From Amoebophrya sp. A120 (Eukaryota > Protista > Dinoflagellata), in the NCBI GenBank assembly GCA_905178155.1, contig CAJINV010000001.1, positions 10,011,432 through 10,075,431 on the forward strand: a stretch of 64,000 nucleotides of DNA, read 5' to 3'. The notes below the pieces were generated by a model. It saw only the letters and a program-made list of their open reading frames with translations, was not told the origin of the DNA and did not search any database. The translations under genes and the position numbers were made by a program. Positions 42,256 to 64,000 of this stretch are shown here, one piece after another (position 1 is the first letter of the stretch; each line of letters starts with the position of its first letter).

Positions 42256-43725
42256 ATGTCACCGTAGGCGTAGATCGCAGGTGTCGTTTTCTGGATAACA
42301 GACAGTCCTACATCCGAGATGAGTCTTCAACATCAAATTCACCCGGGCACTGCATAGTAAGTACTTCTCCCTCTCTCAAAAATCGAGGTCACTTCTGAAG
42401 CCGCTCCGCTTGCGCAGCGAGTCGCGGGTTCCGCTTCCAGAAAGCCAATCGTTGTGACTTTGATAGGGTCCGGCAACAGTGCGCATGTGTGCGCCAGTTT
42501 GTTCGAGAAGAATACGGCGGGAAATGTCGAGACGCAACTGTTGACCAGCGATCCAGCGGTTTGGGTGGAGAACCCGGAAGTAGTGTTTCCGAACGGCGCG
42601 AGGCAGTACGGGAAAATCAGCAAGAAGAGCGACAATCCCGCAGACGTCATCCCCAATGCGGATATTGTGCTCTGGACCGGCCCGGTGTTCTGCACGGTGT
42701 CCGTTTTCGAGAAGATCAAACCTTTTGTCGACGTGCAGCGCACGAAGATCGGCACGATTTTTGGGCAAGGCTTAGTCCACTTGTCCGCATCCCGCGTTTT
42801 CGGCCCCCACGTGAAGTTCTTCGCGCTGCGCAACATCCCCTGGCTCTGCAGACTGGTCGAGAAGGGGCGAAAGTGCGAGATTGTCGGTCCGAAAACAACC
42901 CTCGACGTCGCACTGCTCGGGTTCGAAGAATTTGAGAAGGAAAATTTCCTGCAGGAACAGCTGCATCCCTTGTTTCACTGTTTTCACGGCATCGGGAAAG
43001 CGGAGCCGGTGCTCCAACTTCTCCCAGATTTTACTCCGATCGTCTTCAACCCAGCGAACCAAATCATCCACCCGGCGGCCTACTGGGGTCACTTCCGCAG
43101 CTTCGACGGCGTGAACGGACTACCGCTGGGTCCGGTCGTCGGGGAGTATCTGTATCGCGGAATGACCGAAACGGCGGGGGAATTACTGCTAGAGCTGGAC
43201 AAGGAGTTGCAGGGCATCAAGAACGCGTATTCCACCGCGGTTGGACCTGAATTTTCCAGAGGCTGCGACCTTGTGTCTCCTCTCGAAACGCGGTTACTGA
43301 AGCAGTACGGGGACCAGATTGCGGATAAGAGTTCCATGGCGAAAATGGTGGGGACGAACCAAGCGTACAGCATGGCGAAGACGCCCCACGTGAAGGGAGC
43401 TGCGGGTCGTGAAGATGCTTCTTCTTCGTCCGGGGTTTTTCCGGCAAAGAATCATCGGGTGATGCAGGACGATATCGGGTGGGGGCTGTGCGTGTTACTG
43501 TCGGTTGCGGAAAAGTTGGAAATACAGTTGAAAAAACGTATTCCGACGACGATGATCCGGGCGATGATTGAGTGGCACCAGGTGATCATGGAGAAAGATT
43601 TTCTCCGCGATGGGAAATTGATCGGCGAAGATTGCGAGAGTGTGGTCCTGCTGCGACCGACGGATCCTTTAGAGGCTGTCTCCGGGGTCGGCGGGAAGTC
43701 CGGGGTATTGCACGCAGATCTCTAG
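42256..43725 (+). CDS. Opine (octopine/tauropine-type) dehydrogenase
   Basis: Rossmann start VTLIGSGNSAH; NADIVLWTGP; NPANQIIHP; LYRGM; HRVMQDDIGWGLCVL. The start is uncertain: proposed micro-exon 42256-42263 plus intron 42264-42440 gives MSPKPIVVTLIG. Confidence 0.85.
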
Positions 43726-46736: not shown

Positions 46737-47243
46737 CATCGGATAGATTTTTTTTGGAAGACTGACACTGTAGGATTTTTGGATCAGTTTCCACCGTGTT
46801 TCCGGGAGAAGTACGGATGAAAAACTTGTACAATTACCTTTGGGCATTTTTTCGCTATAGATTGGGCGATTTTTCATCGAGCTTTGGCTTTGTTTTGTCA
46901 CAGGCTTGAGCAGTCGTGGCGACTCGTGTTTGCAGATTTTCGCTATATTACAGCTTTGCGTGTTCTTCAAAAGTACGAGTCTGTAGCACTTCGGCCAGTG
47001 TCGGGTAAAATGTCGAGAAAAAGTACCTTTGGTGTCGGATTCGCTTCTGTGCTCTACTAGAGGGAGAATACAGAGGGAACAGCATTGGGTAATTACCGTC
47101 GAGAGCTGGAATTGAAAACAAGAGCGTGTCTGCTTCTAGTGCCTTTCGGAGTGTTGACGCCATTTTCTCCAGCTCCTTCTCAGACCCCGTACGAGGAGGT
47201 GAAATTAAGAGGAGCCATTTCCAAACTTGCTGCCACAATTACT

Positions 47244-49893
47244 ATGTCCCCTATGTGTCGAAAGTTTAGAAAGGATTTTTGTCGTAAAAACGACCTCCCT
47301 ATCCTCGCTTTGGCGGTCGTAAGCGGTGTACTTCTTACACTAGCCGAGGTCAAAGTCTTTCAATGGATGGCGGAGTTGAGCTTGACAAGTAGCGGCACAC
47401 GTTCGCTCGAGGAAAACTTTTGGTATTCCGAAGACGACGACGCCCGTGCACGATGCGACCAGCACCGCACCACCCCCTTCGATATCGACTACACAGCGCC
47501 GCTAGCGAAGTTCTGCTACGTGATCGCGGTGCTGGTCTGCGTGGTGCTGGTAGGCACCGGGCGGAAAAAAGATGGGCGGGGAAAGAAGAAGGCGGAAGAT
47601 TCATATCAGCCTACCAATGGAACAAATGCATCCGTGCACGACGAAGAGAACAAAGGCAGTCGTCCGGGATCACCCGCCTCACGGGCTGCCACGTCACCAC
47701 GACAACGCGGTGCTGCGAGCAAGACCAACTCACCAGCAATAGCACCCGCTACGAGTCTCGTGATTATCGCGAACGACAGCACGGCAACTCAGGATAGCAC
47801 GCGCGCATCAAGTAGGGGCAGCGCAGTTGAAAGTGCGGCGACCTCTAGTTATACAGAAGGAGCACGACCATCGGAAAATGCAGGAATTAACCCGAAGTCG
47901 AAGAAGCCCCGATTGTACCACCTCGACTACGGACGGATTCTCGCCGTGGCGTGTGTCGTCACGGAGCACTGCGGGAGCAAGGAGTATTCGAGGAGGAACA
48001 CCGGGTTTGTTCTGCACTGGGTGCTCCCGTTCCTGTACGGTATCTCCGGCTACTGCTTCATGCTCTCGCGCGCCGGCCTGGTTGGCTATCTTGGGCGACT
48101 CAGTGTGTTGTTCTGTGCCGGTGTTGGGCTAAATTGGCTAGCGGACGTCTGGAACGGAAATTACAACGAAACGTGGAAGAACACCATCTTCCAAATGGCG
48201 TTTGTTCTGATGCTAATGGCCATGGCGGTGCTGCTGTATCCTTTGAAAAAGCAACTTACGTTTGCAACTACGGACGGTGAGAACGGTAATAGCGTAGATG
48301 ATCGTAAGAGAGAAAGTGGCGCCTTCGCAGACGGAGATCCGAGAACGCCGCCGCTAAAAGCTGCGGGGACACTAAGCAAAGCGAAAGTTGACATTGTGGC
48401 AGGTCGTGCAAAAGGGCCGAGCAACTGTGTCTACAACCCGCTTGACGGCATTGCAGCGATTCAAGTAAGTTGCGCGAGCCCTGGGTCTCCGCTTCCGCTT
48501 TTTCCGCTGTCTGCCACCAACAAGGCGAAGCCATTAGGCGCACGCTTCGCACTGACGCCGCCGGCGCTCGGGAGGAAGAGCGGAGCGCGCTTGCTTGCAG
48601 AGGAATCCTCGTCTTCCGAGCTTGCAGATGAAACCAAGGTCGTGGTGCAGCCAGCGAGTCCGGGTCCGCTGACGAAGCAAGAGAGCCTGCCAGCCAATTC
48701 CGCCTTTCTGTACCGGCCTCCACCTAGGAGGAAAGCCGCGAATACAGCCTACGCGCAGCTACACGATGAGAACGATGTTGACGACGCGACAGCCAGCACG
48801 TCTACCGTCACAACCACAACCAGCTCAACTGCAGCTGAGATACCAGCAGCAATCGAGCCGTCATCGTCCCAAAGTTCGTCATCCTCCTCGGTAACCAAGA
48901 GCACTAGTGCCTCGACGTCCTCTCCTATCAACCTTTTTCGAGAGCCGCCACCTGTTCCGAGAGACAAGGTTGCTGGGCATCGGCCTTCAGCTCCCAGCAA
49001 GCTATGGACCACATTCCAGGATGAATCTGCAATACAGAAAGCAGCTCTGCTGTTCTACTCCGCCTGTGCGTTTGCGTTCCTGCTTGCGTACCTCGCTGAT
49101 GACTCTGCCGACCCCAACACCACGCACTACCATTTGGTCGATGATATGGTATCTTCCTCGAAGTTCATGGGGACGGAATTCTTCCTGCTCTGCGCATTGT
49201 GTAGTTTCGCTTGCTACTGCGAGACAACGCACTACGCGGCAAGTGGAACGGCGATAATCGCGTATTTCTATTTGGTTGATTCAGTGTATCTCTAATCTTT
49301 TTTCTAGTTATAAGTGTCTGTACATATGAGTTCATTCATTGCTTCAGTTGTCGCTGCCACAGCAACGTTTTGTTTTCCTTTTACAAAGAAGAACTCCGTC
49401 ATCTCTGACTCTGTTCAGGTCGGTCTGGCTTCCCCGGGTCTTTCTCCCCTACACAAATGTCGGATTTGCGCACCTGCTGCAGATATTCGTGATCGGAATG
49501 TGGACGGCAAAAGTACCGCTGCCGAACCTGCAGTACTTGCGGGACACGGTTTTTCGAGCTTATTGGCCGCTGGTCCTCGTATTTCTGGTCTGGCTCGCGA
49601 TGCCTACTTCCTACGGCCGCTGCGACTTGTTTCCGAGGACATATCTACTCGATCGGGCCAGGTTCTACCTTTCCGAGCTGATCATTCTGCTTTGGTTCCT
49701 CAGTGGGGGCATGGTCTGCTCTGACCCATTGAATCTAGTCCCACTCCTCAATTATTGGTCGCTGATCGCGTACACAACCCATGAGGCACTGCAACGTGTC
49801 ACGGTCGCGCCGTTCGCCTCGCTGTTTCTGCACTTTCTGATGCCGGGGATGTTCCTGATGCGAAGACTCTTCCTGCTGTGGAGGACGAAATAG
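47244..49893 (+). CDS. Multi-pass membrane acyltransferase-3 (OafA-like) family protein with low-complexity insertions; 2 exons
   Basis: RLYHLDYGRILAVACVVTEH fits the RxxxLDxxRxxAxxxVVxxH signature; VLPFLYGISGY; many TM segments; intron 49262-49418 keeps frame. Confidence 0.75.
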
Positions 49894-50782
49894 TAGTTGT
49901 GCTTTATGAAAAGAATTTTTCGAAAATCAATGAAAATCTTAAAACAACGTTGGCTCGATTGCTTGCCAGCGTCGGGGGACGAGCGATTATCTTCTTTTCT
50001 ACGTAACGCAAAATTACGTAAATGAAAACGGCACTGATTTCCAACTTCTCTGCCCGCTCTGGACGCAAACAGAGCACAAATATGATGATAATCCTTCAAC
50101 AAGCTCAAGCAGTGTGATCGTGTCTTTGATCGCAACAACAAAGCAGCAGTGACTGTTGTTGGCGTGACAGAGGCCGCCTGTGTTACCTTTCGTTTCATTT
50201 TCGTTTTTTTCGTATAGCCAAAGCCTGCCGATACCTGACCAACCCCAAGCGATGAAGTCGTTCCGTGCAGTCCAAGATTAAGGACGCTTGTGTGGAAAGA
50301 GAGTTCTGAGTGCTTTCGTCCTGCAAAGTCTTCTTCGCAAAAACGAACATCGTGTTATATATCGTCAAGCCAGGAGAGTGAACAGGAGAGAGGAGGAGAA
50401 CCAAAGCTGCAAGCTTGCATTGGCATCACTTTTTTCTTCAGGGACTTTCTGGCTTTCGTCGTGTGAAACATGTTGATTTCGTCACCAAATGGACATCGAG
50501 ATCGACATTAGCTGCATGCATTTTCAAGAATCGTTGAAAAGTAAGCGAAGGACGCCGTGACCAGGAGAAGTTCAGCGATGCTTGCTAGGCCAGGCATTAT
50601 AGCGCCTTTTGCTTCGCAAGCGTTCCGCATTTCTTGTGCTGGCGTTGCACAGCCAGGATCCTGCTGTAGCACAATAGCTACCCGAACGGCAGGCGGCGAT
50701 GCGACCGCTCGGCCTGTCGTTTGTTCCGATGCCCGCGATGGGTGAACGAGGACGAGAAAGCTGAAGCAGAGCCTCGAAAATC

Positions 50783-53700
50783 ATGAGCACGACAAGGGGC
50801 AGGCCACCCGGAGCGGGGGCGTCTCAACGACTTCCGTACAAGCAACCACTGAATGCGAATGGGCTCATCTCCGCGTATCACGTGGAAGAAGACGATGAGC
50901 AGCCGACCATCGACGAAGCGGTTTCCGGCTTCGCAGGTCGGGCTTCCTTCGGTGCTGCCCTGATAAATCTAGAGGACAAGCAAGCTCCTGCTGCACCGAA
51001 AAAAAGGGCGACAAACGCGAAGCCGCGAAAGTCTTCGGCGGGTGGAGGTAGAAGGAAAAGCCGTGTTGATGTCGCAGAGTTGGAGGCAGCACCGGCGACG
51101 GAAGAGGAAGTTGTGGATGCCGCTGTGACTGTGGCGGAGAGGTTTAAACGGATTTCGCAGGAAAAAGCTATTCTCGATGACGAAATCGCACCAAGTGCGT
51201 CTCTGGGTCACTTCGATGCGAAGCTGTTCGGAAAGCTGGAAGATATCATGGCTGTTGGGACGCAGGGGAGCCGCGTTTCCGTGGCCGCGAAGAAAGCACG
51301 TCTGAGGGAGTCGTCGGAAAACAAATCAGTGGACGTCGCTCTGCCTGGAGCGGGCGGCTCGTCAGTGGAAGAGGAAAAACGGAAAAGTAGCAAGGCACAG
51401 CGCAACATCGTACCACGAAAGGAGGAAGAGCTCAAGAAAGACGTCGGGAACCTCTTGCGCAGGACCGCGCGGAAAAGCGCCGCCCAGGCTCAGACACGCA
51501 AAAGTGGGGCGAGTAGTTCCGGAAGCAGCCCAGAAAAGGTCCCGCGCGCATTAGACGAGCACCAGAAGCGGCCGACAGGGAATAAACAGGGAAGTGGTAC
51601 AGCTCCACGCTCTGCTCTTGCAGGGAAGAAAGACGTCGCCGGATCATCTACTAGTCCACCACCAATAAAGCCAGCGCGTAGCTCCGTGGGTGAGTCTTTG
51701 GACATGCGCGCGACTACGAAAATGGCCAGAAGAATCCGGGAAGTGGAAGAGCAGCTACCCCAGTTGCTGCTTGACTGGCGCGACACCTGGCGCGCGCGCG
51801 AGGCGGCGCAGGCTTCGGGCAGAGAGGCGACTGTGGAAGAGAAGACTTTCGAACTCAGTATTCTCCAACGCATGCTCTCCGACATACAACACACCCTTGC
51901 CGAGGCGAAGAACGCGACTGTGACGCTGTTTAACGCGGAACCTCTACTCCAGCGCATTCGGAAGCTGGACGGAAAGCTCGTGGAATATCGGAGGGATGAA
52001 CTCAGCTACCTGGCAGCGCGAGCCGCAGACGAGGAGGAAAAGGAAGAGATGGAGCGAAGAAAAAGCAACGAAGCTCAACAAGCTCCAGTTGATGAAGGGG
52101 TTGGTGCACAAGAGGAAGCAAAGCCACCGGAAACTACAGGCCCCAAAATCCCCCCTGAGAGTGAAACGGAGGCACGTCCGTCGCGCGTCAACCTCCGCAA
52201 TCTTATGGGCAGAACCAGCGGCAGAGGGCATCGGTTGAGCGGGAGACGGAAAAGCCGTTCCCCTACTGACGACACGAAAACTGGTGCACCAGCAGGGGGA
52301 CAAGAGGAGAATGCGAACCAGAAAGCCACGAGCAAGCGGGAATCGAGCCGAATTTCGGTGGAAATGCGGAAATTGCCGTCGAGCACCTACAGTACCAGAC
52401 TTCGTTCGACCTATGTGGGCAGTGACAGGAATAAAACGGCGGAGAATGCGCTCGGTTTGAGAGCTACAAAGCAAGCGGAAGCAGTAGCAGGACCACAGCC
52501 AGCCTCGGGGGAAGCCAGAAGTTCCTCGGTTATGAGCGTGCCGATGCGTCAAGCTTCAGTGTTGGAGCGCAATTTTCATTCAACTTATGCTACGTCGGCG
52601 TCTGTGCGTTTTCCGTCGAGTTACGAGCCCGGATTGCGTGAGACAGCAGCTTCCACCGCTGGAAGTACATCGATGTCGATCGAGCAGCGATATCCAAGCG
52701 ATTACACGGATCCAGGTTATCGCCCGACGTCCACCATGTCTTCGACGATGCCGAGCATGCGCGAAGTGCCAAAAAGTTCCGTTTCTGAATTCCGAGCCAT
52801 GCCGACAGTTCACGAGGAGGACGCCACGGTCTTTCTTCCACCCGATCTATCTCCCCGTGACGCCTTGGGGAATGCGCGAGAGGTGCTGACGCAACTGACG
52901 AACGAACAAAACATGGCGAACGTCTTGACGAGCAGAGGATCTTCTGCCACGACTGGAACGAGTGCGCCGCGGCCCTCGGAAGCGTCGCTCCAGGAGGCTT
53001 TCGTCGGTCTCTACAAAGAATTGCGGGATGACGAGACGCGGCGGATATTCCAGGAACTGAAGAAAGCGATGCAAGACCGCGAGGACACGCTGTTGCATAT
53101 GAGTTCCGCTGAGGAGGCGCGCTTTGCCAGTTTCGTCACCGCTTCACTGGATACGCTGTGGGAGTCTAGCTCCCAAGCGGTTACCGTGCGCTCGTCGCTA
53201 GAGGTGATTCGAACGTTTGCCCTGCGCCAGCCCCTCCCGGCGGTGCCACTGCGTACAGAAGCGGCGCCGCTGGGTTTCCGGGACGATTTTGATGCGAAGA
53301 ATCCTGACCCCGCGACGCAAGGCGCCCCTCCCTCCCTGCAAGTGCTACTCGATCGCTTTCATGCGGCCACGAGAAATCTGGGAAAGGTTGGATCAACCCG
53401 TGACGACGAGGACAAACGAGGATTCGCGCCATCAGCTCGTAACCGGCTCGGCGTCGTTGCCGCCACACGACAAAGCTTTTCGCGGCTGCACCGGATGTGG
53501 GCGTCCGCTGTGCAACGGAGCTTCGGGTTTTTCGTTCGAGCGTTTAATTGCCGTCTTGAGGGTGATGACGGCGGGTTCTTGATTTGCACTGTGCCACCAA
53601 GTACCAAGACCGCAGCGAGTGACGAGAAGCATCCACCCTCGTCCCAACTACTTGCCGACAAAAGAGACCGAGAGCAGCGCGTCGCGGAGATGCGGCTTCT

Positions 53701-56700
53701 CCGGGCCGTGAATGAGGTGAAGGGCACTTTGGTGCCCAATTTTCCGCTCACTGAAAATGTGCTGGATGCGCTCGGGAGTCCTCACGATCCTGCAGCCCAA
53801 GAAAGTCACTTGCCGTCTTTGCGCATACGAGCAGCTACAGCGAGCCTGAATCGAATGCTTTTGCTTGGACTTGATTCGGAAAAGCAGCTGAATGTCCTGG
53901 ATGCGATCCAGGCGATGCAGAAGGTCGCCGAGGACAGCCTGCCACTGTTAGAAAACAAAGCCGAAGCTGTCGACGCCGCACAACTCCTTCGCAACTACCT
54001 CGCATTCGCGGAAATGTGTCCTTTGGAAAATCCGTTATTGCAGTTGCAGTACTTAACCGAGACCCGCTTTCGGACGCTGCTAGAATCTCAATTGCTGCTC
54101 GGAACGACCGAGGTGGAAGCGTGTAAGAAGTTTACGAAGGTCCCGGTTTTTGAAAAAGGCGAGAACTTTCAGTTCGTCGTGGAAGTGCTGAAGCAAAACT
54201 CGACGGGCATACAGCCCACCGCCTTAGGGAAGCCACGGAAACGCGATACACGACGTGGGGGCGAAGACAGCAGTACCGGCATCGGGGTCTTTTCGATTTT
54301 GGAGCATGAGGACCAGGCAAGTGACAGCGGGGGTGCAAAGCGCTCAAGCTTGAGCAAATTCTTGCCCGATGACATGGACGACCTGAAAAAGCGGCGCTTA
54401 GAAGAGGACTCCGAGACCGAATCGGAGGCGGACGAGCTAAAAGCGGACCGGGACATTGATGGCCACGTTTTGGCCAAACGCATTGACGACGACTTTGCGG
54501 ATTTGTTGGATCTCAACGGTCAGCGATTGGAAGGCCAAAAGTTCGCGGCGCACATCATGGACCGCACCGGGCAGGCGCGCGCGGAGTTGCTACATCGTCT
54601 CAGTCCTCATCTTCACAAGAAGAGGGAAGGTTCATCTGGTCACCAAAATGTGGGACGCTCCTACGAGAACAACTCATCTAAGCCGGAGTTGCTCGCAACC
54701 TACGACGACGTCGACGACATTCTGGCCGTTCTTCTGCGCTGCAAGGAGGAGAGCCAGCTCTTTGTGCGGTTGAAGAAAATCGTGCATGCAAAGTTGGACA
54801 AGGTTGTGGAAGCCTTGGCAAAGAAGTCAAGTCAGGGGGTGAAGCTGGACCTACTATTGGTCGAGGTGATCCACGGCCTGAATTTTGCCGCGGAGTACTT
54901 GCACGCAGTCGGGTCGGCGCTGAGCGAGGACTTGGCGAAAGTGATTGCCGTTTTGCCACTGGATCTGCGCGAGTACGTCGAAGGTGCCCAGAGGTCCGCA
55001 GATCTGTTCTCTTTTCTCGACGAATACGAGCTGCAGGCCCCCGAAAACGCGAATTCCCTTTGCTTGGTTCTGACGAGAAAGCTTCGGGCCGAGAGCGGGC
55101 CACTTTCGCCAAGCGCGAGCGGGGGTGCTACTTCCAGCGTAACCGGTTCGAAGACGAGCTTTATCAAGGACTCTACAGACGGTAGTCCCGTGGATGAAGT
55201 CGCATCACGCGGAGGCGATGGACAAGTAGTAGGCCCGTCAGGAGCTCCTGCCCTCGCGACCGCGGCTGACAACCTCCTGTTCTACCCGGACCGAAGTCTG
55301 CTGTTTCGGGAGGACGAGCGGATCGAACGACAACTGGAGGAAATGGCAAAGAGGACGCTTCTGACTCATGCACAGGTGCAGGACCTGGCCCGGATTGCGC
55401 GGGAAACGAAACCCTTTCGCGCGTTTCCCGCGGGAAAATCCAGACCGTTGTGGGAAGACCCAGCAGTGCTGGCCACTGTGGCGGGGGAAAACTTGCAGAA
55501 GAAGATGCGCATGACGTTCAATTCCACCAATTTGTTCGACGTCGTCGACGCGGCCGACGAAGCGAGGTCGCTTTTACCCCTGAGCGGCGTGGAGCGAGAG
55601 AACCAGGAGCTGCAGGAAACGCAGGCCGCACTGGAAGCGGAGCTGGCGGACTTGGAAACGGAACACCAAGATTTCCTTTCCTCCGTGATGTCAACGCGAT
55701 CCAGGCGCTCGAGACGAGAGTTGAAAGCAATGTCACCGATGCTCAGCTCGCCTGGACAGGCCAGTGAACAACAAGCTGATGCAGACGGAACAACCCAACC
55801 AGCTTCCGACCAGAAGAAGCGCCGGCGCTCTTCCCTGATCGCGTACATCGACGGCGTCGGCCCAAAAATCAGCCGCGACGCAGACGCTGACCTCTTTTCC
55901 GACGAAGACACGACGCTGCGGGACCGGGTTGCCGCAAAATTGCGGAAACCCGGTAGGGAATCGTATTACGCGGCGCTGGTCCGCGAGGCGGACGAAGACG
56001 GCAAGCACCCGGCCAAGAGCGATAAGAAGTTCGTTGCGTTTCTGCAGCGTGCCAGGCCGTACTTGGAAGAGCGGCTAGAGGAACTAGCGGAAGAGGGAGC
56101 CGAAATTCAGGATGAGATGCAGGACCGAGCGGCAAGACTGCTGCGCGGGCTGGGCAAAGTGAAAGCGGAGCGCGGACGCAGGTCGCTCGAGGACGACAGC
56201 GAAGACGCGCAAGCGCAGCTGGATCTGGGTTTGCTTTTCCCGGACATGTACATCAACGAAGTGGACAAAAACGGCAGAATCTCTCCAAAACTCGTGCGAC
56301 CACCACGGACGCCGACCGAGAAGTTTCGGAGTCTGTACCAGCGTCTCGCGCTGGTGGAGAACGTTCGATCGGGACGTTACTACTACCGCGTCGCGCATCT
56401 AGGAGCGAAGCGCTCACTGAGTGATGATGCGCACTACACGCGGAAGAAACTCTTCTCGGAATTGTGGCAGGAGGCGGTGCAGCGAATGGGCAGGGTGCGC
56501 ATGAAACGCTTCATGACCGCGGGGGGAAGTGTGTACGGCCCGGATGCGCAGATGGAACACTTGTACCAGGATGCGGTCGCATGGGACGTATTGGGATCCC
56601 GAGAGGTTTTGTCGAAGATCAAACACGACTACGTTATTAAGGAGGACGCGAAGCTGTTGCGGCTGAGAAGTGGCAGATTCGGAAAAAATCAGCCCTTCTT

Positions 56701-59700
56701 GGTAAAGGATGTTGCGGAAAGTACTGCTACTTCGCCAGGCGAAGAAGGTGCTGAAATTTCGAATATGAGCGATGACATCGAGTTGGGCGGCATTTACCCC
56801 GATCCTTTCCTCGCGGGCGACATCGTGCTGCTGAAGCGCGATCTTTTGCACGAAACCGACTACGAGCGCTCTAGTGCGACGGAGTCAAAGCGTGACACGA
56901 GGACCACGACGTTGGCTGGCACGAGGTCCGGCGACCCCTACGAGCGGCTGATCGACCAGATTTTGTCCTCCTATCCGCGGCATCGCCCGCGCCTGCGCGT
57001 TCGAGACGGGATCGTTTCGAAAAGAAAACTGATTCGGGTGGATTGCGTGGATTCCATGACGGGCGGCGTTCTCGGAGAGTACCGCCTGGACGTCAGCAGC
57101 ATTGTGCACGCGCAGCCGGAGAAAGAGCTCGGAATGAAAGGGAGAATCGTGTATGATGTGAAAATGGAAAGTCCCTCTAGCGTGGCTGGACCCGATGTTG
57201 TCTCAGGCAGCAAGGTCGGTCGCGTAAGCGCAGCGGAGCGCAGGCAGTCCAAAGCCTCCGCTTCGTCTCCTAGCAGCGGCGGCGACATCCAGTATCTGGT
57301 TCCGGCAGAAGCAGAACGCGACATGGAGGAACTCACGACAGCTGGGTCGTCCAATCTAAAGTCCGTGGCGTCGTCAAGAAAGTCGGCAGTGGCGAAGCGA
57401 AAGAGTTTGAAGAGTACCGAAAGTCGTGCTACTACCACGAACATGAGAACAACGCGGAGGAGCAGGACGCAGACACAACAACTCGCTTTTGCGCCGCAGC
57501 AACGGGCATCTGCGACGTTACCTCCAGGAAGAGAGCGAGATGGTGCTCGGAGAGCCGCCTCCGCTGCAGACGCGGCTACTGATTCGCTGCAGGCACGGCG
57601 GCTGCGGAAAAGCAACAAGGCGAAAACAACGCCGCTGTTCTTCCCCGAGCCTGTGGACGACATGGATCTGCCTCTTCGAAAGTCCTCCATGGGGAGCACG
57701 TCGATCGACGACTCCGCGGAAGACTTTCTGCAGTACGACGTGAAGCCGCTGCCAGGTCGGGAAGTGCAAGTGCCCCGCGTTTTGCTGCGCGACGTGGTTG
57801 TCGACTCCCATGACCCGCGGTTCGACGACTTCCGGATGCTGCGGCAGTTGGTGCAGGCGGGCTACCAGCTCGGTGTGCGGGGAACTACTTCGCACACGAA
57901 ACGAATGAAAACGGGCGCGCTCGGGGAGGACGAGGCGGCGTTTGCGGAGGCGTTCGAGATGTTGAAGCGCGGATCGTCTGCGTGGGAGGACATGGACTAC
58001 CTCTTCACGGAGAACCTCGCCCGGCACTCGCTACCCGGCGAGCACGAGAAGGACCGGAAAAGTGACCACCTGCTCGGCGGAGGAGGAAATGGGGTGGACG
58101 AGGATTTGTTCGTGAGTGTGTGGCCGGTGAAGCGACTGCTCGGGAACGAAGGCACGTTCTTTTCCACGAGCGACTTTGTTGCAGCGAGCACGCAAGACGT
58201 TGCGCGCGTCTTAGGAAAGCCGGGGGTGCGGGACTTTGTTGTGCACCGCGACTTTGTGGTCCCGGAGGTCTACGGGCCCGCCTTCCACGCGACGGCGCAA
58301 CGCGACTTGCTGCGGGTCGTGCCACGAGATGTCGTCGTCGCCACCAGTTTTGACAAGAACATGCGAGTGTTACGCGATTTGCACAAACACCCGCGGAGTT
58401 GTATTCTACTGGTGCACGTGGCTGGGAAGGATGAAATGCTGGACCTGGAAGACGACCAGGCCGACGGTCTGCCGTCCAAGAGGAAAAAAACAGAGCAAAT
58501 CGACATGACGCGCCTTTCGGTGTCGCACTTCCAAGAGTACGAGAATCTCGGCCGGGCGATGGCCACGAAGGCACAGGAGAACGAGGTGATCGAGGCGGAA
58601 CGCAGCCAAAGCAGCAGCGGAAGCGAAGCGGAGATGAAAAGGGAAAGTGAAAGCTTGACTTACCGGTTGATTCCACAAGCGGTTGTTGCACTGTTTGCGG
58701 AAGACGAGGGGGGGAAAATGAGCATGCAGGGCAAACCTGTCATGGTGCCATGCAACTACCTGCAACCGCAGTCGAAGTACAACAGGTTCGATGAGCTGAG
58801 TCGGACGCGGGTGCTCGCGGAAGGTGCCGTGCAGGAGCGCTACGATGAGGAGCTGCACGAAGAGTACCTGCCAGACCTGGTTCTCCTCAAGGCAAGCGCG
58901 TTCATGGATAACGAGCAGCAGCTGATAGAGGCGCTGACGCCGCAACTGCAGACGCTGCTCGCCTTGGCGGCGGAGGGGTACGTGTTTCGCGTTTTGAGTT
59001 ACGATCCGCCTGCTGAAGCTGAGGCAGAGGACGCGGAGGATGAGACAGAAGACCTCGGGCTACTTGCCACTGTCGGGGTGTACACGGAGGACGTCCTTGG
59101 AAGCGCGGACGCTGCGGGATTGAGCTACGTGGTTCCACAAGAAGCGCTGGCGCACTTGAGTCCGGTTTTTGCGGTCGATCGTCCGTGTGTCGCTGGGGAT
59201 CGCGTGCAGCTACGGCAGTACGAGATTGGACAAAGTTTGGGAGCGGGCAGTGAAGCGGCTGCCAGTCGTGCGTCCAGCGAGCGCGCCACTTCGGAAACGA
59301 CCGTCTGGGACGATTTCGCAGCGGCGGAAATCGTGGAGACAAAAATGTACAGGGGCGAAATCTGCTACTGCAAAGATGTGTACAGCGCAGATTGGATCGG
59401 GGGCGGCACCCGAGCTGTCCTCTCGTTCTCCGGAGACGCTGGTGGCAGAACAAGTCGAAACAGCAGTAATGACGAGGTCGAGCTTCCGCGATCCTGGCTG
59501 GAGCCCCTTGAAAAAGTGGACGAGCGGCGTTTGTTGGACAAAAGTACCGCGGTCCAACTCCGCGACGTCCTGCACGGCAGGCGGTACCGGCACCGCATCA
59601 AGTATCTCAGGAAGCAACTCGAACTTGGTGCGGCGCTCTACGCTGTTCCCGTCGGCATCGACGCCGACGTCGATCTGGTCCCGACAGGGACCACGACAAA

Positions 59701-62700
59701 TCAAAGCGATCTACGAGGAGGCTCGACCAGAACAACAGTCGTGGAAGTATTAGGTGAAGATGCAGATGAAGTTTCAGAGGAAGAAACGGACCCGACTGTG
59801 GCAGCACTGGAGGGGAAAGTGGCGCGCGAGGAGGCAAAGGAGCGCGATCCGAGGCAAGATTTGATTCGCATTCCCAGTCCGCTTCTCCGCCTCCAGGTTT
59901 GGCGACGTGGGCTCTTTGTCCGGGAGTTGCGCATTCCGGCCGCGTATCTGTCACCTGTGTTGCTTGATTCGACCACAGATGACGCCGGTGCTGGGACAAC
60001 CGGGCACGAGCTTGAGGCCACCTCGCAGGCGGGCGCGCTCGCAGAGCAGGTACGTAGCTCCAGGGATTCCGCCGCAATTCACGCAGTGATCACGCATGCT
60101 GCAGAGGGAAGCATCCACCCAAGAAACGCACGTTCATCACTGCAGCCGGGCGAGATTGTGATGTTGCACAGCCATACGGGGCTGTGGCCTAATCAGGAAG
60201 CGCATCTGGCTGCTGCCGCAAAAGAGATAAAGTCGGGGATGTGCGATCTGCGATTTGTCGAGTCGGTGAGCAAGCACGCGGCCCTCGTTGCGCTTATCGG
60301 TGCACACAAAGAAAAAGACAAGTATTCGGTTGTCAAATGCGTTCCCGTTCCGAAGGACGCAATCGCCCCGGTGCTGGAGCAGTTTGATCTGTTCTACCAC
60401 AGCAACACCGTTCCCGCGATGCAAAACGAACTCGTGCACGTGGAGACCCTGGGGGCGCCGAGATTGGATTTTGCGGGCAAGGCAATTCTGGGTGGAGGCT
60501 TGGAGGACGTTGGTGAGCGGTCCCACCGGGTTTTGCTTCCGGGCGACGAGGTCCTCGTCCGGCCGGGCTTTGCGCTGGCAGATCGCCTGCAAGCGCGGAT
60601 CCAGGACGGCAGCAGCTGCGTTGTGGCCCACATTGCTTCCGGCGGTCACTGGTACCTTTTGAACACGACGCTCGCGCCAGTGTCTGTCGCGGTAGACCGA
60701 GGGTCGGCGTTGACCACTGGTTTCGAGCCAAAAGACGGAGAAGGAGAACTCAATAGCGCGAATGAAGAAGAGAAAAAGTCGAATGCTTCTAGCACATTGT
60801 TCCCGTCAACCGCGTCTGAGAGTGAACAGGAGACGACCGTGGACCGCGCGCTCGAGGAGCAGAGTTTTTTCTGGCTCCCCGCCCGCCACGTCGTCGTTCC
60901 CGCCACGCCGTTTCGTCTGGAGGGCGGCATTGGCAAGCGCGTTGGGGTGCACGACGTCTGTGTCCCGGATGCCTGGACGAGTGCGGTGCGGCGAGTGCAG
61001 ACCGCTTCGTCCGCAACGCTGCTTGAAGTCGGCCCGGCCTTGGCCCAAATCGGCGTTTTATCCAGAAGCAGTGTCTATGAGGTGGTCAGTTTACCTACAG
61101 TGTTCGTGGTTCTGGAGGAAGACCTAGTGATGCAAGTTGCCTTACCGGAGAGCGCGGAGGAAGAGTCGGAATTCGCTGCTCTGCAAAAACTGCTGGCGGC
61201 GTTCCCACACGGTCAGCGCGTTTACTTGAAGACTCCCTTGATCGGCCGGGGGTGCGCGTCTTACACCGCACTCATGGAGGCACTCGCTGCGAAGAACGAG
61301 AGCACCGCCAAGCACGAGTTGAAGATAGGAACCGTGTCTGACCATCGCGTCGGCGTCACGATTGCCGGACAACATCTTCACAACAAGAAGGAGTTTTTAC
61401 TCCCAGTATCCTGCCTGCACCTCCCACGCCCGTTGCACGCTCGACACGACGTGCAATTCGAGAAGAAGCAGCGTGTCAGCGTCAAAGATGTGGCTGGGCT
61501 GGAGGGTGACACAGAGTATGTGAAGGTGCGCGATTTCGTCAGAGAAGTTCCCCGGGCAAGAGTCGTTGTCCACAGCGAAGACACGCGTAAGGGACATGCA
61601 CAAGTGATGCTTCTTGACGTAGATGGGCTTCCCTTGGATCGGGCGACCATCCGGTCCGATCTGCTAGAGGATTTCCATAAGGGAATGAACGAGGGGACTC
61701 TGGCGTCGGCGCCAAACCTCAGAAAGATTGTAGGAGCTACGGGAACTGCGCCAGCAAGTGCTAGTCGGAAAAGCAAGAGAAAAACGAAAGCTGCAGACGA
61801 AAACCAAGATAGTGGCAAGAAGGTCCCGTGCTCGATCCGACCAATCGTTGTCTACGAAGGATACCGATCCGTGATTGATCGGCTGCGTGCGCTCGAAGCA
61901 AGGGGCGATGAGCTCCTCATGCCGGAGCGGGAAGTGAAAAAGAAGGCGGATCGTGTCATCGTTTTGGTGCATCGGGAAGCGCCGCCGGCGGATGAGAGCG
62001 ACACCAGCGCGTTGCTTGCAAATCCATTAGTGTGCACAGAAGTTGTCCCTCGTGACTGCCTGCTGCCGCATGTGGAGACTGCACTCGTAGAGGAACGAAA
62101 ACCGGCCGCGCACTCCTTTTTCCTACCTGACACCGAGGTGTTTCTTCTTGGGCGCGCGCCGGAACTCGATCCCGCGTGCCAGAAACTGTTTGACTTGTAC
62201 TATGCACCGGGGAGCGATCCGTCGACGAAGGTAAAGCTTCTCGTGCGAGCACAGCAGGGGGCGAGTGTTTGCGTAGAGCCGGTGCTTGCGCGGCTGACAA
62301 AAGGTGCGCTTTTCCAAGGAGAATCAGAACGCGAAAGACCGTTCGTGCTGCCGGCCGAGCTGTTGACCCAAGCGCAACCTATTTTTGACTCGGTGGCTGC
62401 AGTAGCTGGAGAAGACGACGAGCACGAGAGGTACTTTGCCCCACTGACGGAGGTGCTATTGCGAGACGTGCAAGTGAGTGCAAAGGAATACCCGAGCGTA
62501 CAGCTTATCAGGCAGCACGTGGAGGAGCGCGGTGCGATTTTGGTCATCGCACAGTACCTGCACAGGGACGACTTCGTTACTGATGAAATGATAGCACCCG
62601 ACTTCTCGGTTGCGGACGGTTGCGCTCGCATTGACGTTGCGGTGATGCTGCCCGAGGTCTGGGAAGGGGCGCAGCACGCGGCGAAGCAAGAGAATTTACA

Positions 62701-64000
62701 GGCTGCTGCTCTTGACGAGTACTACAGCCAGTTTTTCCAAAGCTCTTCCGAAGTCGCCATGATCTCTGCGCTACCTTCGGTGTTTCTTGTGCCCCGCCAG
62801 CACTTCCATTTCCACCCCGATGCGGCAGGCGCGAACTCGTTGCCTGTTGCTGGGGAAATAGTGCGGATCAGGTCCGTCGTGTTCCCCTGGGCCAGTATGA
62901 CGGAGGCTCACTACGAGCTGGTGTCGAGTCTTCGCGATTTCAGCACTGAGAAGCTGTTGCTCCACAGTGTGGACACGAAGCTGGAGGAGGCGACGGTCTG
63001 GGTGCTTGACGCACAGGTCCCCGACCAGCACCCGGTGACCACGGTGAATCTTCCATTGTCTGCGCTTGAACCTGTGATCACCGTGGAAAATGTTGCGGCC
63101 TATTCGTACCGGGAGAGCCAGTTGCAGCAGTGCCTGCAGTACCAGGCGTTCTTGGCCGAACGGGTAGATCAGACACAGGAATCACCAACGGTGATGCAAA
63201 GCACCGCTCCCGCTGCTGCTGCACCACCGCAGCCAGCTGGCCACTACAGCAGAAGGGTCACGCAAAACAGCGCGCGAAGCCGAAAGCGCAGCAGTGTTGC
63301 CCGAGGCAGCATTGTGAATGGAACGTTGAACTTAGATCCGAATCGCCTTTTGCCTGTGATCGAAGAGGAGCTTTCGGGCAGCATACTGCAGGCGATCGCA
63401 CCCGAGGACAAACGCTTGCGACCGCTGACTCTGGAACGAAAAACGTTTTCGCCGTTGTCTCGCTACTACGTTGCACCGGGGGATACTGTTCTGCTAACCA
63501 AGCAAGACACGAAAAACACGCAAGCGGAACCTTTGTTGCAGAAAGTGCGGCAAATGAGCGTGAACCCGAACAACCGAACGAGGGTCCTATCGTACAAGCC
63601 CGATTTGGCGGAAATTGCCGTCTCCCGCACGGGGATCAGGAGAGCGAGCGTTTTAGACCACCAACACGCTGGATTTCAGCAGCAAACCTTCCACGTGCCG
63701 GCGGTGGCCCTCGTTCCGCACATTGATCCGGATGTCAAGAAGTGCAGAATTGGTGACTACGTCCATCTTCGTGACGTCTTTCTCGGGGCAGACGAACATG
63801 TCACTGTTGCCGAACAATTTGTGCAAGATGAAGCGGCTGCGCAGAAAAATACAGAGACGCCACACCGCCACTTGATCCGCTTGTGCCAGGATGTAGAGGA
63901 GAAAGACCCCTTGGAGAAACCGACGCTTGCGTGTGAACTTGTCGTTGCAGGGATCCACGGCGGTGTTGAATACAAAACAGTCCAGACAACCGTCCATCTG
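50783..64000 (+). CDS. Giant intronless ORF (>4400 aa, 3' end beyond the window); disordered/helical N-terminal half, tandem SH3/KOW-like repeats in the C-terminal half
   Basis: Frame +2 has a stop at 50762-50764 and ATG at 50783 (MSTTRGRPPG...). It was open in every segment I translated, through ...GVEYKTVQTTVHL at 64000. The ORF track lists no terminated frame +2 ORF in this span, consistent with no internal stop. Confidence 0.88.
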   Translation, partial: MSTTRGRPPGAGASQRLPYKQPLNANGLISAYHVEEDDEQPTIDEAVSGFAGRASFGAALINLEDKQAPAAPKKRATNAKPRKSSAGGGRRKSRVDVAELEAAPATEEEVVDAAVTVAERFKRISQEKAILDDEIAPSASLGHFDAKLFGKLEDIMAVGTQGSRVSVAAKKARLRESSENKSVDVALPGAGGSSVEEEKRKSSKAQRNIVPRKEEELKKDVGNLLRRTARKSAAQAQTRKSGASSSGSSPEKVPRALDEHQKRPTGNKQGSGTAPRSALAGKKDVAGSSTSPPPIKPARSSVGESLDMRATTKMARRIREVEEQLPQLLLDWRDTWRAREAAQASGREATVEEKTFELSILQRMLSDIQHTLAEAKNATVTLFNAEPLLQRIRKLDGKLVEYRRDELSYLAARAADEEEKEEMERRKSNEAQQAPVDEGVGAQEEAKPPETTGPKIPPESETEARPSRVNLRNLMGRTSGRGHRLSGRRKSRSPTDDTKTGAPAGGQEENANQKATSKRESSRISVEMRKLPSSTYSTRLRSTYVGSDRNKTAENALGLRATKQAEAVAGPQPASGEARSSSVMSVPMRQASVLERNFHSTYATSASVRFPSSYEPGLRETAASTAGSTSMSIEQRYPSDYTDPGYRPTSTMSSTMPSMREVPKSSVSEFRAMPTVHEEDATVFLPPDLSPRDALGNAREVLTQLTNEQNMANVLTSRGSSATTGTSAPRPSEASLQEAFVGLYKELRDDETRRIFQELKKAMQDREDTLLHMSSAEEARFASFVTASLDTLWESSSQAVTVRSSLEVIRTFALRQPLPAVPLRTEAAPLGFRDDFDAKNPDPATQGAPPSLQVLLDRFHAATRNLGKVGSTRDDEDKRGFAPSARNRLGVVAATRQSFSRLHRMWASAVQRSFGFFVRAFNCRLEGDDGGFLICTVPPSTKTAASDEKHPPSSQLLADKRDREQRVAEMRLLRAVNEVKGTLVPNFPLTENVLDALGSPHDPAAQESHLPSLRIRAATASLNRMLLLGLDSEKQLNVLDAIQAMQKVAEDSLPLLENKAEAVDAAQLLRNYLAFAEMCPLENPLLQLQYLTETRFRTLLESQLLLGTTEVEACKKFTKVPVFEKGENFQFVVEVLKQNSTGIQPTALGKPRKRDTRRGGEDSSTGIGVFSILEHEDQASDSGGAKRSSLSKFLPDDMDDLKKRRLEEDSETESEADELKADRDIDGHVLAKRIDDDFADLLDLNGQRLEGQKFAAHIMDRTGQARAELLHRLSPHLHKKREGSSGHQNVGRSYENNSSKPELLATYDDVDDILAVLLRCKEESQLFVRLKKIVHAKLDKVVEALAKKSSQGVKLDLLLVEVIHGLNFAAEYLHAVGSALSEDLAKVIAVLPLDLREYVEGAQRSADLFSFLDEYELQAPENANSLCLVLTRKLRAESGPLSPSASGGATSSVTGSKTSFIKDSTDGSPVDEVASRGGDGQVVGPSGAPALATAADNLLFYPDRSLLFREDERIERQLEEMAKRTLLTHAQVQDLARIARETKPFRAFPAGKSRPLWEDPAVLATVAGENLQKKMRMTFNSTNLFDVVDAADEARSLLPLSGVERENQELQETQAALEAELADLETEHQDFLSSVMSTRSRRSRRELKAMSPMLSSPGQASEQQADADGTTQPASDQKKRRRSSLIAYIDGVGPKISRDADADLFSDEDTTLRDRVAAKLRKPGRESYYAALVREADEDGKHPAKSDKKFVAFLQRARPYLEERLEELAEEGAEIQDEMQDRAARLLRGLGKVKAERGRRSLEDDSEDAQAQLDLGLLFPDMYINEVDKNGRISPKLVRPPRTPTEKFRSLYQRLALVENVRSGRYYYRVAHLGAKRSLSDDAHYTRKKLFSELWQEAVQRMGRVRMKRFMTAGGSVYGPDAQMEHLYQDAVAWDVLGSREVLSKIKHDYVIKEDAKLLRLRSGRFGKNQPFLVKDVAESTATSPGEEGAEISNMSDDIELGGIYPDPFLAGDIVLLKRDLLHETDYERSSATESKRDTRTTTLAGTRSGDPYERLIDQILSSYPRHRPRLRVRDGIVSKRKLIRVDCVDSMTGGVLGEYRLDVSSIVHAQPEKELGMKGRIVYDVKMESPSSVAGPDVVSGSKVGRVSAAERRQSKASASSPSSGGDIQYLVPAEAERDMEELTTAGSSNLKSVASSRKSAVAKRKSLKSTESRATTTNMRTTRRSRTQTQQLAFAPQQRASATLPPGRERDGARRAASAADAATDSLQARRLRKSNKAKTTPLFFPEPVDDMDLPLRKSSMGSTSIDDSAEDFLQYDVKPLPGREVQVPRVLLRDVVVDSHDPRFDDFRMLRQLVQAGYQLGVRGTTSHTKRMKTGALGEDEAAFAEAFEMLKRGSSAWEDMDYLFTENLARHSLPGEHEKDRKSDHLLGGGGNGVDEDLFVSVWPVKRLLGNEGTFFSTSDFVAASTQDVARVLGKPGVRDFVVHRDFVVPEVYGPAFHATAQRDLLRVVPRDVVVATSFDKNMRVLRDLHKHPRSCILLVHVAGKDEMLDLEDDQADGLPSKRKKTEQIDMTRLSVSHFQEYENLGRAMATKAQENEVIEAERSQSSSGSEAEMKRESESLTYRLIPQAVVALFAEDEGGKMSMQGKPVMVPCNYLQPQSKYNRFDELSRTRVLAEGAVQERYDEELHEEYLPDLVLLKASAFMDNEQQLIEALTPQLQTLLALAAEGYVFRVLSYDPPAEAEAEDAEDETEDLGLLATVGVYTEDVLGSADAAGLSYVVPQEALAHLSPVFAVDRPCVAGDRVQLRQYEIGQSLGAGSEAAASRASSERATSETTVWDDFAAAEIVETKMYRGEICYCKDVYSADWIGGGTRAVLSFSGDAGGRTSRNSSNDEVELPRSWLEPLEKVDERRLLDKSTAVQLRDVLHGRRYRHRIKYLRKQLELGAALYAVPVGIDADVDLVPTGTTTNQSDLRGGSTRTTVVEVLGEDADEVSEEETDPTVAALEGKVAREEAKERDPRQDLIRIPSPLLRLQVWRRGLFVRELRIPAAYLSPVLLDSTTDDAGAGTTGHELEATSQAGALAEQVRSSRDSAAIHAVITHAAEGSIHPRNARSSLQPGEIVMLHSHTGLWPNQEAHLAAAAKEIKSGMCDLRFVESVSKHAALVALIGAHKEKDKYSVVKCVPVPKDAIAPVLEQFDLFYHSNTVPAMQNELVHVETLGAPRLDFAGKAILGGGLEDVGERSHRVLLPGDEVLVRPGFALADRLQARIQDGSSCVVAHIASGGHWYLLNTTLAPVSVAVDRGSALTTGFEPKDGEGELNSANEEEKKSNASSTLFPSTASESEQETTVDRALEEQSFFWLPARHVVVPATPFRLEGGIGKRVGVHDVCVPDAWTSAVRRVQTASSATLLEVGPALAQIGVLSRSSVYEVVSLPTVFVVLEEDLVMQVALPESAEEESEFAALQKLLAAFPHGQRVYLKTPLIGRGCASYTALMEALAAKNESTAKHELKIGTVSDHRVGVTIAGQHLHNKKEFLLPVSCLHLPRPLHARHDVQFEKKQRVSVKDVAGLEGDTEYVKVRDFVREVPRARVVVHSEDTRKGHAQVMLLDVDGLPLDRATIRSDLLEDFHKGMNEGTLASAPNLRKIVGATGTAPASASRKSKRKTKAADENQDSGKKVPCSIRPIVVYEGYRSVIDRLRALEARGDELLMPEREVKKKADRVIVLVHREAPPADESDTSALLANPLVCTEVVPRDCLLPHVETALVEERKPAAHSFFLPDTEVFLLGRAPELDPACQKLFDLYYAPGSDPSTKVKLLVRAQQGASVCVEPVLARLTKGALFQGESERERPFVLPAELLTQAQPIFDSVAAVAGEDDEHERYFAPLTEVLLRDVQVSAKEYPSVQLIRQHVEERGAILVIAQYLHRDDFVTDEMIAPDFSVADGCARIDVAVMLPEVWEGAQHAAKQENLQAAALDEYYSQFFQSSSEVAMISALPSVFLVPRQHFHFHPDAAGANSLPVAGEIVRIRSVVFPWASMTEAHYELVSSLRDFSTEKLLLHSVDTKLEEATVWVLDAQVPDQHPVTTVNLPLSALEPVITVENVAAYSYRESQLQQCLQYQAFLAERVDQTQESPTVMQSTAPAAAAPPQPAGHYSRRVTQNSARSRKRSSVARGSIVNGTLNLDPNRLLPVIEEELSGSILQAIAPEDKRLRPLTLERKTFSPLSRYYVAPGDTVLLTKQDTKNTQAEPLLQKVRQMSVNPNNRTRVLSYKPDLAEIAVSRTGIRRASVLDHQHAGFQQQTFHVPAVALVPHIDPDVKKCRIGDYVHLRDVFLGADEHVTVAEQFVQDEAAAQKNTETPHRHLIRLCQDVEEKDPLEKPTLACELVVAGIHGGVEYKTVQTTVHL

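What the first reader, a model, noticed from the sequence alone, without database searches (positions are those of the whole stretch)
56807..63790. Degenerate tandem SH3/KOW-like beta-barrel array inside the giant protein
Seen: a recurrent start motif hxxG(D/E)xVxL(R/K)(D)V at 56807 FLAGDIVLLK, 59186 CVAGDRVQLR, 59543 STAVQLRDV, 60140 LQPGEIVML, 60533 LLPGDEVLVR, 60926 GIGKRVGVHDV, 61202 FPHGQRVYLK, 61457 FEKKQRVSVKDV, 62435 FAPLTEVLLRDV, 62843 PVAGEIVRIR, 63470 VAPGDTVLL and 63743 CRIGDYVHLRDV. A recurrent end motif hx(V/L)PxxxL occurs at 58739 VMVPCNYLQP, 59126 YVVPQEAL, 59477 VELPRSWLEP, 60869 FWLPARHV, 61394 FLLPVSCL, 62342 FVLPAELL, 62783 FLVPRQHF, 63044 VNLPLSALEP and 63689 FHVPAVALVP. 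In six cases the end motif starts 54-66 nt before the next start motif, a fixed junction spacing. Established: these resemble the first and last strands of SH3-fold barrels (KOW, Tudor, Mib/HERC2-type). Inference: a chain of 12 or more barrels with variable insertions, possibly an undescribed repeat family.
Basis: partly seen in the sequence, partly recalled or inferred. Interest (0 to 1): 0.8.

Follow-up and report, generated by a model that had tools for sequence, protein, structure and literature searches.

The report
Giant chain of twenty SH3-like barrels
A 5,000-residue protein of the marine parasite Amoebophrya carries about twenty highly diverged copies of one small domain, predicted to fold as an SH3-like barrel and kept in the same order in a distant strain; it likely works as a many-handed scaffold that binds other proteins, and it matches no family in the databases searched.

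Summary
The repeat is real and larger than reported. All 21 motifs are at the stated coordinates. The full protein (P0002, 5,092 aa) and its only relative found (Amoebophrya AT5.2, 33% identity) show 21 colinear units: 17 in the window, 4 beyond it. Plain self-BLAST sees nothing. However, 35 of 42 held-out units beat at least 95 of 100 shuffles (selection alone gives 48 of 306), and a fully automatic motif search gives z 6.6. One unit, folded with five sister units as alignment, gave a five-stranded barrel with a helix in the first loop (pLDDT 71). Its matches are nearly all SH3-like barrels (PetP, Mind bomb REP, KOW, Tudor; Z 5-7). A five-unit fold failed, so other units rest on homology. KOW, Tudor-cage, classical SH3 and REP sequence signatures are absent. 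Junction spacing is not fixed: 8 of 20 are short in both strains. Function is untested; a protein-binding scaffold is most likely. The scan's notes showed no earlier report on other DNA.

The parts
50783..64000 (+). Giant ORF, 4,406 codons in the window and open at the 3' end. The database model P0002 (5,092 aa) starts at 51248 and continues 849 residues past the window (four more units and a conserved tail).
50783..54289 (+). N-terminal region, low complexity at first (Ser/Ala/Pro/Gly- and Lys/Arg-rich); absent from the AT5.2 model; no family match
54290..56640 (+). Conserved region of unknown family in front of the array (aligns with AT5.2 residues 1 to about 780), helical by eye; holds no barrel unit
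56807..57109 (+). Unit U1
   Evidence: 0 and 2 of 100 shuffles reach its score; the reversed A120 copy scored as high
57110..57760 (+). Long poorly conserved insert after U1; begins with a start-like motif that has no matching end (label U2, dropped before all counts)
57761..58264 (+).
   Evidence: (5 and 5 of 100; borderline)
58298..58768 (+). Unit U4 (start placement uncertain, long inserts)
   Evidence: (0 and 10 of 100)
58862..59155 (+). Unit U5
   Evidence: 1 and 0 of 100
59186..59506 (+). Unit U6 (start motif not conserved in AT5.2)
   Evidence: (0 and 0 of 100)
59534..59956 (+). Unit U7; closest paralogue U15
   Evidence: 0 and 0 of 100; z 6.5
60140..60370 (+). Unit U8, compact
   Evidence: (7 and 0 of 100)
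60533..60898 (+). Unit U9
   Evidence: 1 and 0 of 100
60923..61114 (+). Unit U10, shortest
   Evidence: 0 and 3 of 100
61202..61423 (+). Unit U11
   Evidence: 0 and 17 of 100
61457..61672 (+). Unit U12 (end motif lacks the proline)
   Evidence: (3 and 0 of 100)
61811..62068 (+).
   Evidence: 1 and 0 of 100
62120..62371 (+).
   Evidence: 0 and 0 of 100
62435..62812 (+). Unit U15
   Evidence: 0 and 0 of 100
62843..63073 (+). Unit U16, the unit that was modelled: strand, helix, three strands, 3-10 turn, strand
   Evidence: (0 and 0 of 100)
63074..63469 (+). Long linker U16-U17
63470..63718 (+). Unit U17
   Evidence: 0 and 1 of 100
63743..64000 (+). Unit U18, cut by the window end just before its end motif is complete; U19-U22 follow outside the window in P0002
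   Evidence: (0 and 1 of 100)

Best explanation
The giant protein holds a chain of 19-21 ancient, diverged copies of one domain, predicted to fold as an SH3-like five-stranded barrel with a helix in its first loop, and it likely acts inside the parasite cell as a many-handed scaffold on which each barrel, or each short run of barrels, binds its own protein partner. Shown: the repeat, its number and order in two strains, the selective conservation of the first and last strands, and the lack of family signatures. Predicted: the fold (modelled for one unit, carried to the others by homology). Inferred: each unit has kept its own identity rather than being homogenised, so the units are probably not interchangeable; junctions of conserved short length (U5-6-7, U9-10, U15-16, U17-18-19, U20-21-22) likely join barrels into small rigid groups between long variable linkers; binding would be to peptides or protein surfaces, as for Mind bomb REP, the UBE2O barrels and PetP/NdhS, and not through an aromatic cage. 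No partner is known.
For: Repeat. A profile built from window units alone picked out U21, which lies outside the window (11.4 bits). Fold: five models at pLDDT 66-71 with the element order strand 7-10, helix 22-32, strands 39-45, 50-55, 67-72, 3-10 turn, strand 76-78. By their titles nearly all of the 50 listed matches are SH3-fold barrels: PetP Z 7.2 (61 aligned, rmsd 2.1), Mind bomb REP Z 6.7 (63, 2.4) and 6.4 (64, 2.3), NusG KOW 6.6 (55, 2.7), UBE2O 5.8 (64, 2.8). Constraint: 57% identity in 483 motif columns against 34% elsewhere in the array; gap openings 0.9 per 100 residues in the last-strand block against 3.5-3.8 in loops and linkers, as the small-barrel survey describes for the short, invariant 3-10 turn (10.1101/140376, section 17). 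Non-redundancy: orthologous unit halves align at z 4-38 in 41 of 42 cases, while paralogous pairs average z 0.6-0.8. Intracellular, not basic: no hydrophobic N-terminus, highest 19-residue hydropathy 1.5-1.7, array pI 5.7-5.9. No catalytic family in the window protein or in full-length P0003.
Against: Only 1 of 21 units has a usable model; it came from a six-row alignment of sister units that I chose for looking clean, with no decoy fold as control. The five-unit fold with two sequences failed (pLDDT 31). The best Z of 7.2 lies in the range that the tool calls common, and Foldseek gave no match at E <= 0.001. U20 and U22 failed the held-out test in both strains, and the reversed A120 copies of U1 and U3 scored as high as the real ones. 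One of two automatic real runs passed only 7 of 18. No partner, localisation or stage of expression was found. A shared fold shows no function: the same fold binds RNA in KOW and eL21 proteins. The most conserved polar residue is an Arg/Lys at the end of strand 1 (32 of 42), which would also suit a nucleic-acid ligand.
Confidence: 0.5

Rival explanations
1. The barrels are mainly structural: a beads-on-a-string spacer or ruler in a parasite-specific cytoskeletal structure, anchored by the conserved regions at either end, in which number and order of units set a length (roughly 50-60 nm if extended; my estimate from about 2.5-3 nm a barrel, recalled).
For: Same number and order of units in two strains at 33% identity. 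What all units share is core and turn residues, not an obvious binding site. Eight junctions keep their length within 0-4 residues. There is a hint of a three-unit period among U11-U22 (p 0.013, 1 of 9 tests, noticed by eye first).
Against: Twelve of 20 linkers are long or differ in length between strains (some by 40-110 residues), and loops carry inserts of up to about 150 residues, which a ruler would tolerate poorly. My crude coiled-coil scan found no window. No localisation data.
Confidence: 0.2
2. A nucleic-acid-binding array of KOW-like barrels, in the manner of Spt5 or ribosomal eL21, acting in transcription or RNA processing of this unusual genome.
For: KOW domains of NusG/Spt5, KIN17 and eL21 are among the fold matches (Z 6.0-7.0). 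Conserved Arg/Lys at the end of strand 1 in 32 of 42 units. Basic patches in the N-terminal region and linkers (seen in the sequence).
Against: A glycine-rich KOW-type loop (pattern recalled) occurs in 1 of 42 units. KOW matches cover 51-58 residues, against 63-64 for REP. No NGN or KOW Pfam match. The array is acidic overall, and unit net charge runs from -19 to +10.
Confidence: 0.13
3. Only part of the array still folds as barrels; the rest are decayed copies, or the motifs belong to another repeated beta structure.
For: No signal in plain BLAST or phmmer self-comparison; 7 of 42 units fail the held-out test; failed multi-unit model; unguided learning of the inner elements did not converge (852 against 735-802 in shuffles).
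Against: All 17 window units pass the held-out test in at least one strain, and all 21 are conserved between strains with the motif columns best conserved.
Confidence: 0.12
4. A Tudor-type reader of methylated arginine or lysine that nucleates an RNA-protein granule, like Drosophila Tudor.
For: Tudor, PWWP and chromo domains are among the fold matches (Z 5.2-6.2); the overall design (many non-redundant barrels, long linkers) is alike (PMC11956945, abstract).
Against: The Tudor loop pattern (recalled) occurs in 0 of 42 units, the position after strand 1 carries no aromatic residue in any unit, and aromatic content is low.
Confidence: 0.05

Closest known systems
Mind bomb REP domain (Mib repeats; PDB 4XI6, 4TSE)
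   Same: SH3-like barrel in tandem; aligns over 63-64 of 80 model residues at rmsd 2.3-2.4, more than the KOW and Tudor matches, which suggests that the inserted helix is matched too. REP binds a peptide, the C-box of Notch ligands (PMC11887331, passages).
   Different: 11-13% identity; no Pfam match; no GGW-type loop (1 of 42, pattern recalled); two repeats against about 20; no zinc finger, ankyrin or RING found here. Z is tied with several unrelated barrels.
Drosophila Tudor and other multi-Tudor scaffolds
   Same: [quoted passage not shown]
   Different: 19-21 units here; helix in the first loop; no aromatic-cage pattern.
Spt5/NusG KOW array, KIN17
   Same: Same barrel and similar first-strand motif; tandem pairs that move as one body (10.1101/140376, passages).
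   Different: No glycine-rich KOW loop, no NGN domain, three to four times more units.
UBE2O N-terminal SH3-like domains
   Same: Several SH3-like barrels forming an acidic protein-binding platform (five domains; PMC12818219, passages); Z 5.5-5.8.
   Different: No UBC domain in full-length P0003 or in the window part.
PetP, NdhS, NdhO, PsaE (photosynthetic SH3-like subunits)
   Same: Best structural scores (Z 6.3-7.2).
   Different: Single small subunits; 13-18% identity (29% for Ssl0352); no sign of common descent beyond the fold.

Membership tests
SH3-like small beta-barrel fold | Five strands with a short 3-10 turn between strands 4 and 5 | tested here: met
   For U16 only: AlphaFold2 model, pLDDT 71, pTM 0.55; matches nearly all SH3-fold barrels
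SH3-like small beta-barrel fold | The same fold in the other 20 units | tested here: inconclusive
   Homology supports 19 of 21 units in at least one strain; the model of U10-U14 failed
SH3-like small beta-barrel fold | Length variation confined to the loops; strand 4-turn-strand 5 invariant | tested here: met
   2 gap openings in 231 residues of the end block against 58 in 1,667 inside units and 27 in 714 in linkers; the first-strand block is intermediate, 6 in 252
Mind bomb REP / Mib repeat (SH3_15) | Barrel with helical insert after strand 1 | tested here: inconclusive
   63-64 residues aligned, Z 6.4-6.7, tied with PetP, NdhO, eL21 and KOW; the defining paper was not held
Mind bomb REP / Mib repeat (SH3_15) | Sequence match to the Pfam family; GGW-type loop (recalled) | tested here: not met
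   No such family for 17 window units or P0003 at E <= 10 (HMMER filters drop most matches above about 0.1); loop pattern in 1 of 42 units
Mind bomb E3 ligases / UBE2O | RING, ZZ, ankyrin or UBC domain in the same chain | tested here: not met
   No such Pfam family in the window protein or full-length P0003; the last 849 residues of P0002 were not scanned directly, only their counterpart in P0003
KOW (NusG/Spt5) | Glycine-rich loop after strand 1 (recalled); NGN domain for Spt5 | tested here: not met
   1 of 42 units; no KOW or NGN family
Tudor | Aromatic cage (pattern recalled) | tested here: not met
   0 of 42 units
Classical SH3 (polyproline-binding) | Tryptophan pair and PxNY-type end (recalled) | tested here: not met
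   Tryptophan pair 0 of 42; PxNY 1 of 42; a looser proline-aromatic end in 9 of 42
Protein-binding scaffold (function) | Specific binding of partner proteins | not testable with these tools
   No partner known

The most novel reading that the evidence does not exclude
This is the longest chain of SH3-fold barrels in one protein, nearly twice the eleven of Drosophila Tudor, built from a barrel family of its own. It grew by duplication of a three-barrel module and forms a semi-rigid ruler or backbone of a structure peculiar to Amoebophrya, such as its infection apparatus or multinucleate sporont.
Probability: 0.15. Interest if true: 0.8.

Novelty: new variant of a known kind. Interest (0 to 1): 0.5.

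Why it matters
About 60% of Amoebophrya proteins have no functional assignment (PMC7789003, abstract passage). This case shows that one of the largest hides a regular domain array that BLAST, Pfam and ordinary AlphaFold miss, and that using sister repeats as the alignment can recover the fold. It adds an unclassified SH3-like repeat at a copy number above the stated Tudor record, and it gives a defined set of expressible domains with which to fish for partners in a parasite that controls dinoflagellate blooms. Its weight is limited by having two sequences, one modelled unit and no functional data.

Tried and rejected
Relatives: word-based searches found only P0002 and P0003 among proteins of 2,422-7,709 aa and none among shorter proteins for two regions; longer proteins were not searched. 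phmmer of U9-U18 against 1.84 billion representatives returned only the protein itself; P0003 did not appear either, so that library may under-represent these eukaryotes. Two metagenome scans and one viral scan found no relative. No whole genome is held, so paralogues elsewhere in the genome and the presence of a normal Spt5 are untested; within the window the unit profile found no second carrier (best other frame E 0.016). The ESM Atlas gave no result. PDB sequence searches gave only chance-level rows, and viral structures none at E <= 0.001. DNA-level repeats: only short chance-like pairs and one 32-base tandem, so no recent duplication. AlphaFold2 on U10-U14 with two sequences failed. Complex prediction of U15 with U16: no verdict. 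No hand-curated alignment of helix, strand 2 and strand 3 over all 42 units exists, so these inner elements are placed by eye, by automatic alignments that varied with the input, and by the one model. Three-unit period: p 0.013 for first halves and 0.027 for both halves, but 0.22 for second halves, where period 4 gave 0.045 (9 tests); kept as a hint only. Expression: no listed holder is on record as RNA; two raw RNA runs with the same species label laid 0 reads, which is no test. A secreted or membrane protein was rejected on hydropathy. Ten paper searches listed no description of this protein; none was built to find the longest known SH3-fold array, so no record is claimed. No supplements were read; the expression tables of PMC6176090 may hold this gene's stage profile.

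Full report
Setting. The finding lies in one open frame, 50783-64000 on the + strand, 4,406 codons and open at the window end. The full-length database model is P0002, 5,092 aa, identical over the part searched. The only relative found is P0003, 4,350 aa, labelled Amoebophrya sp. AT5.2 in EukProt, 33% identical over 2,732 aligned columns. Earlier notes of the scan name this genome as Amoebophrya A120; I did not test that beyond the AT5.2 orthologue. Orthologues among these strains average 48-51% identity (PMC7789003, passages), so this protein evolves faster than average.

Transcription. Contigs of runs guessed to be RNA cover 57934-64000 in two overlapping pieces without gaps or joints (run X3) and 61408-64000 in one (X6). 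Two runs of the same sample as X3 have no cover in the intergenic stretch 50234-51169, where run X1, possibly the window's source, goes on. This is a weak hint that the array is transcribed unspliced.

Observation. All 21 motifs are at the stated places. Aligning the two orthologues showed the same layout 21 times between P0002 residues 1847 and 4710: a first strand, a helix, two further strands by eye, and the end motif. Seventeen units lie in the window (U1, U3-U18) and four beyond it. A start-like motif after U1 without an end (U2) was dropped before any count. Over the 42 copies the start block has G in 21, V in 33, L/I/V in 38 and R/K in 32; the end block has P in 35, with hydrophobic residues at -3, -1 and +4 in 95-100%.

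More than chance. BLAST and phmmer self-comparisons gave nothing significant, and there are no DNA repeats beyond chance-like pairs. Unsupervised motif discovery recovered the two motifs above local shuffles for the whole region, but not for halves or for the N-terminal control. A two-block search on paired columns scored 254.8 against 193 +/- 9 in 45 shuffles. With each unit left out in both strains, a MAFFT/HMMER profile of the rest scored 35 of 42 held-out copies above at least 95 of 100 shuffles; U20 and U22 failed in both strains, and U4, U8 and U11 in one. Because I had picked the units, I ran a fully automatic pick-and-test pipeline. Real sequence gave first-motif scores of 300 and 325 against 185-234 in 19 shuffles, and 18 of 24 and 7 of 18 passes against 48 of 306. 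A profile from window units only also found U21, outside the window. Motif columns are 57% identical between strains against 34% elsewhere.

Junctions. The distance from the end-motif proline to the next start-motif valine is 17-25 residues in 10 of 20 junctions in this strain and 8 of 20 in AT5.2; those eight are short in both. The short distance is probably just the minimal link between two barrels (inference), but its conservation suggests small rigid groups. A three-unit period among U11-U22 is a hint only.

Fold. AlphaFold2 on U10-U14 with two sequences failed (pLDDT 31). U16 with five compact sister units as alignment (A8; chosen after local trials) gave pLDDT 71, pTM 0.55, and five models at 66-71: strand, helix, three strands, 3-10 turn, strand. 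Foldseek had no match at E <= 0.001, but its list is KOW, NdhO/NdhS/PsaE, Tudor, PWWP, Agenet, eL21 and the like. The wide VIA search over 48,161 chains gave 58 at Z >= 5 and none at Z >= 8, led by PetP, Mind bomb REP and NusG KOW; the second look agreed. The uniformity of the list, not any single Z, is the evidence. Indels between the strains avoid the last-strand block, as expected for this fold (10.1101/140376, section 17 and passages).

Family. No Pfam, NCBIfam or PDB-sequence match was found for the units or the proteins. Recalled signatures of KOW, Tudor, classical SH3 and REP are absent or nearly so. REP is the closest in layout, since it aligns over more residues than KOW or Tudor, but membership is not shown. 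No further relatives were found; with such fast evolution this does not prove restriction to Amoebophrya.

How it likely works. The protein has no signal peptide or clear membrane segment and no recognisable catalytic domain, and its array is mildly acidic. Each unit resembles its orthologue far more than its sister units, so the array is old and position-specific. The nearest structural relatives with known jobs in multi-barrel chains bind proteins: REP binds a Notch-ligand peptide (PMC11887331, passages), the five UBE2O barrels form an acidic client platform (PMC12818219, passages), and the eleven Tudor domains of Drosophila Tudor are non-redundant parts of a scaffold (PMC11956945, abstract). 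I therefore commit to an intracellular multivalent protein scaffold. I put about 0.85 on the array being SH3-like barrels, and 0.5 on the whole explanation including function. The rivals are a structural ruler (0.2), a nucleic-acid-binding array (0.13), a partly decayed array (0.12) and a methyl reader (0.05). Passages of the infection time-course paper (PMC6176090) gave nothing on this protein.

Verdict. It is a new variant of a known kind, tandem small beta-barrel arrays, with an unclassified unit and an unusually high copy number; function is untested. Interest 0.5.

Noticed in passing
window 51833-51844 and 55898-55906: The database model P0002 leaves out two in-frame pieces of 12 and 9 bases as if they were introns. 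The 12-base piece reads GT...AG, and one RNA-like contig starts at the base after it (51845). No contig shows a joint at either place, and two contigs run 16-22 bases past the 9-base piece without a gap, too little to count as bridging.
   Followed up: partly
window 50783-54289: The AT5.2 model begins only at the residue matching about 54290, so about 1,170 codons of the A120 frame have no counterpart in it; P0002 itself starts 155 codons after the first ATG. The true start is open.
   Followed up: partly
window 54290-56640: This region without family match is well conserved with AT5.2, with several long near-identical stretches. It may hold one or more undescribed domains and was not folded.
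   Followed up: partly
window 42454-43725 (+): Octopine/nopaline dehydrogenase helical domain (E 2e-21) in a parasitic protist.
   Followed up: no
window 2060-2983, 11278-12909, 13310-15106, 25170-26663, 26973-29873, 44918-45865, 45912-46736 (+): Neighbours with Pfam matches: ion channel, SWEET/MtN3 transporter, SET domain, MIZ/SP-RING finger, papain-family protease, OCRE, C1 plus CCCH finger. The longest ORFs all lie on the + strand, as described for Amoebophrya gene clusters (PMC7789003, abstract passage); only + strand ORFs were scanned. No functional link to the giant gene is apparent.
   Followed up: no
window 33327-36803, 18982-21411, 47085-49295, 22634-24655 (+): Further long ORFs (1,158, 809, 736 and 673 aa) without a Pfam match.
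   Followed up: no
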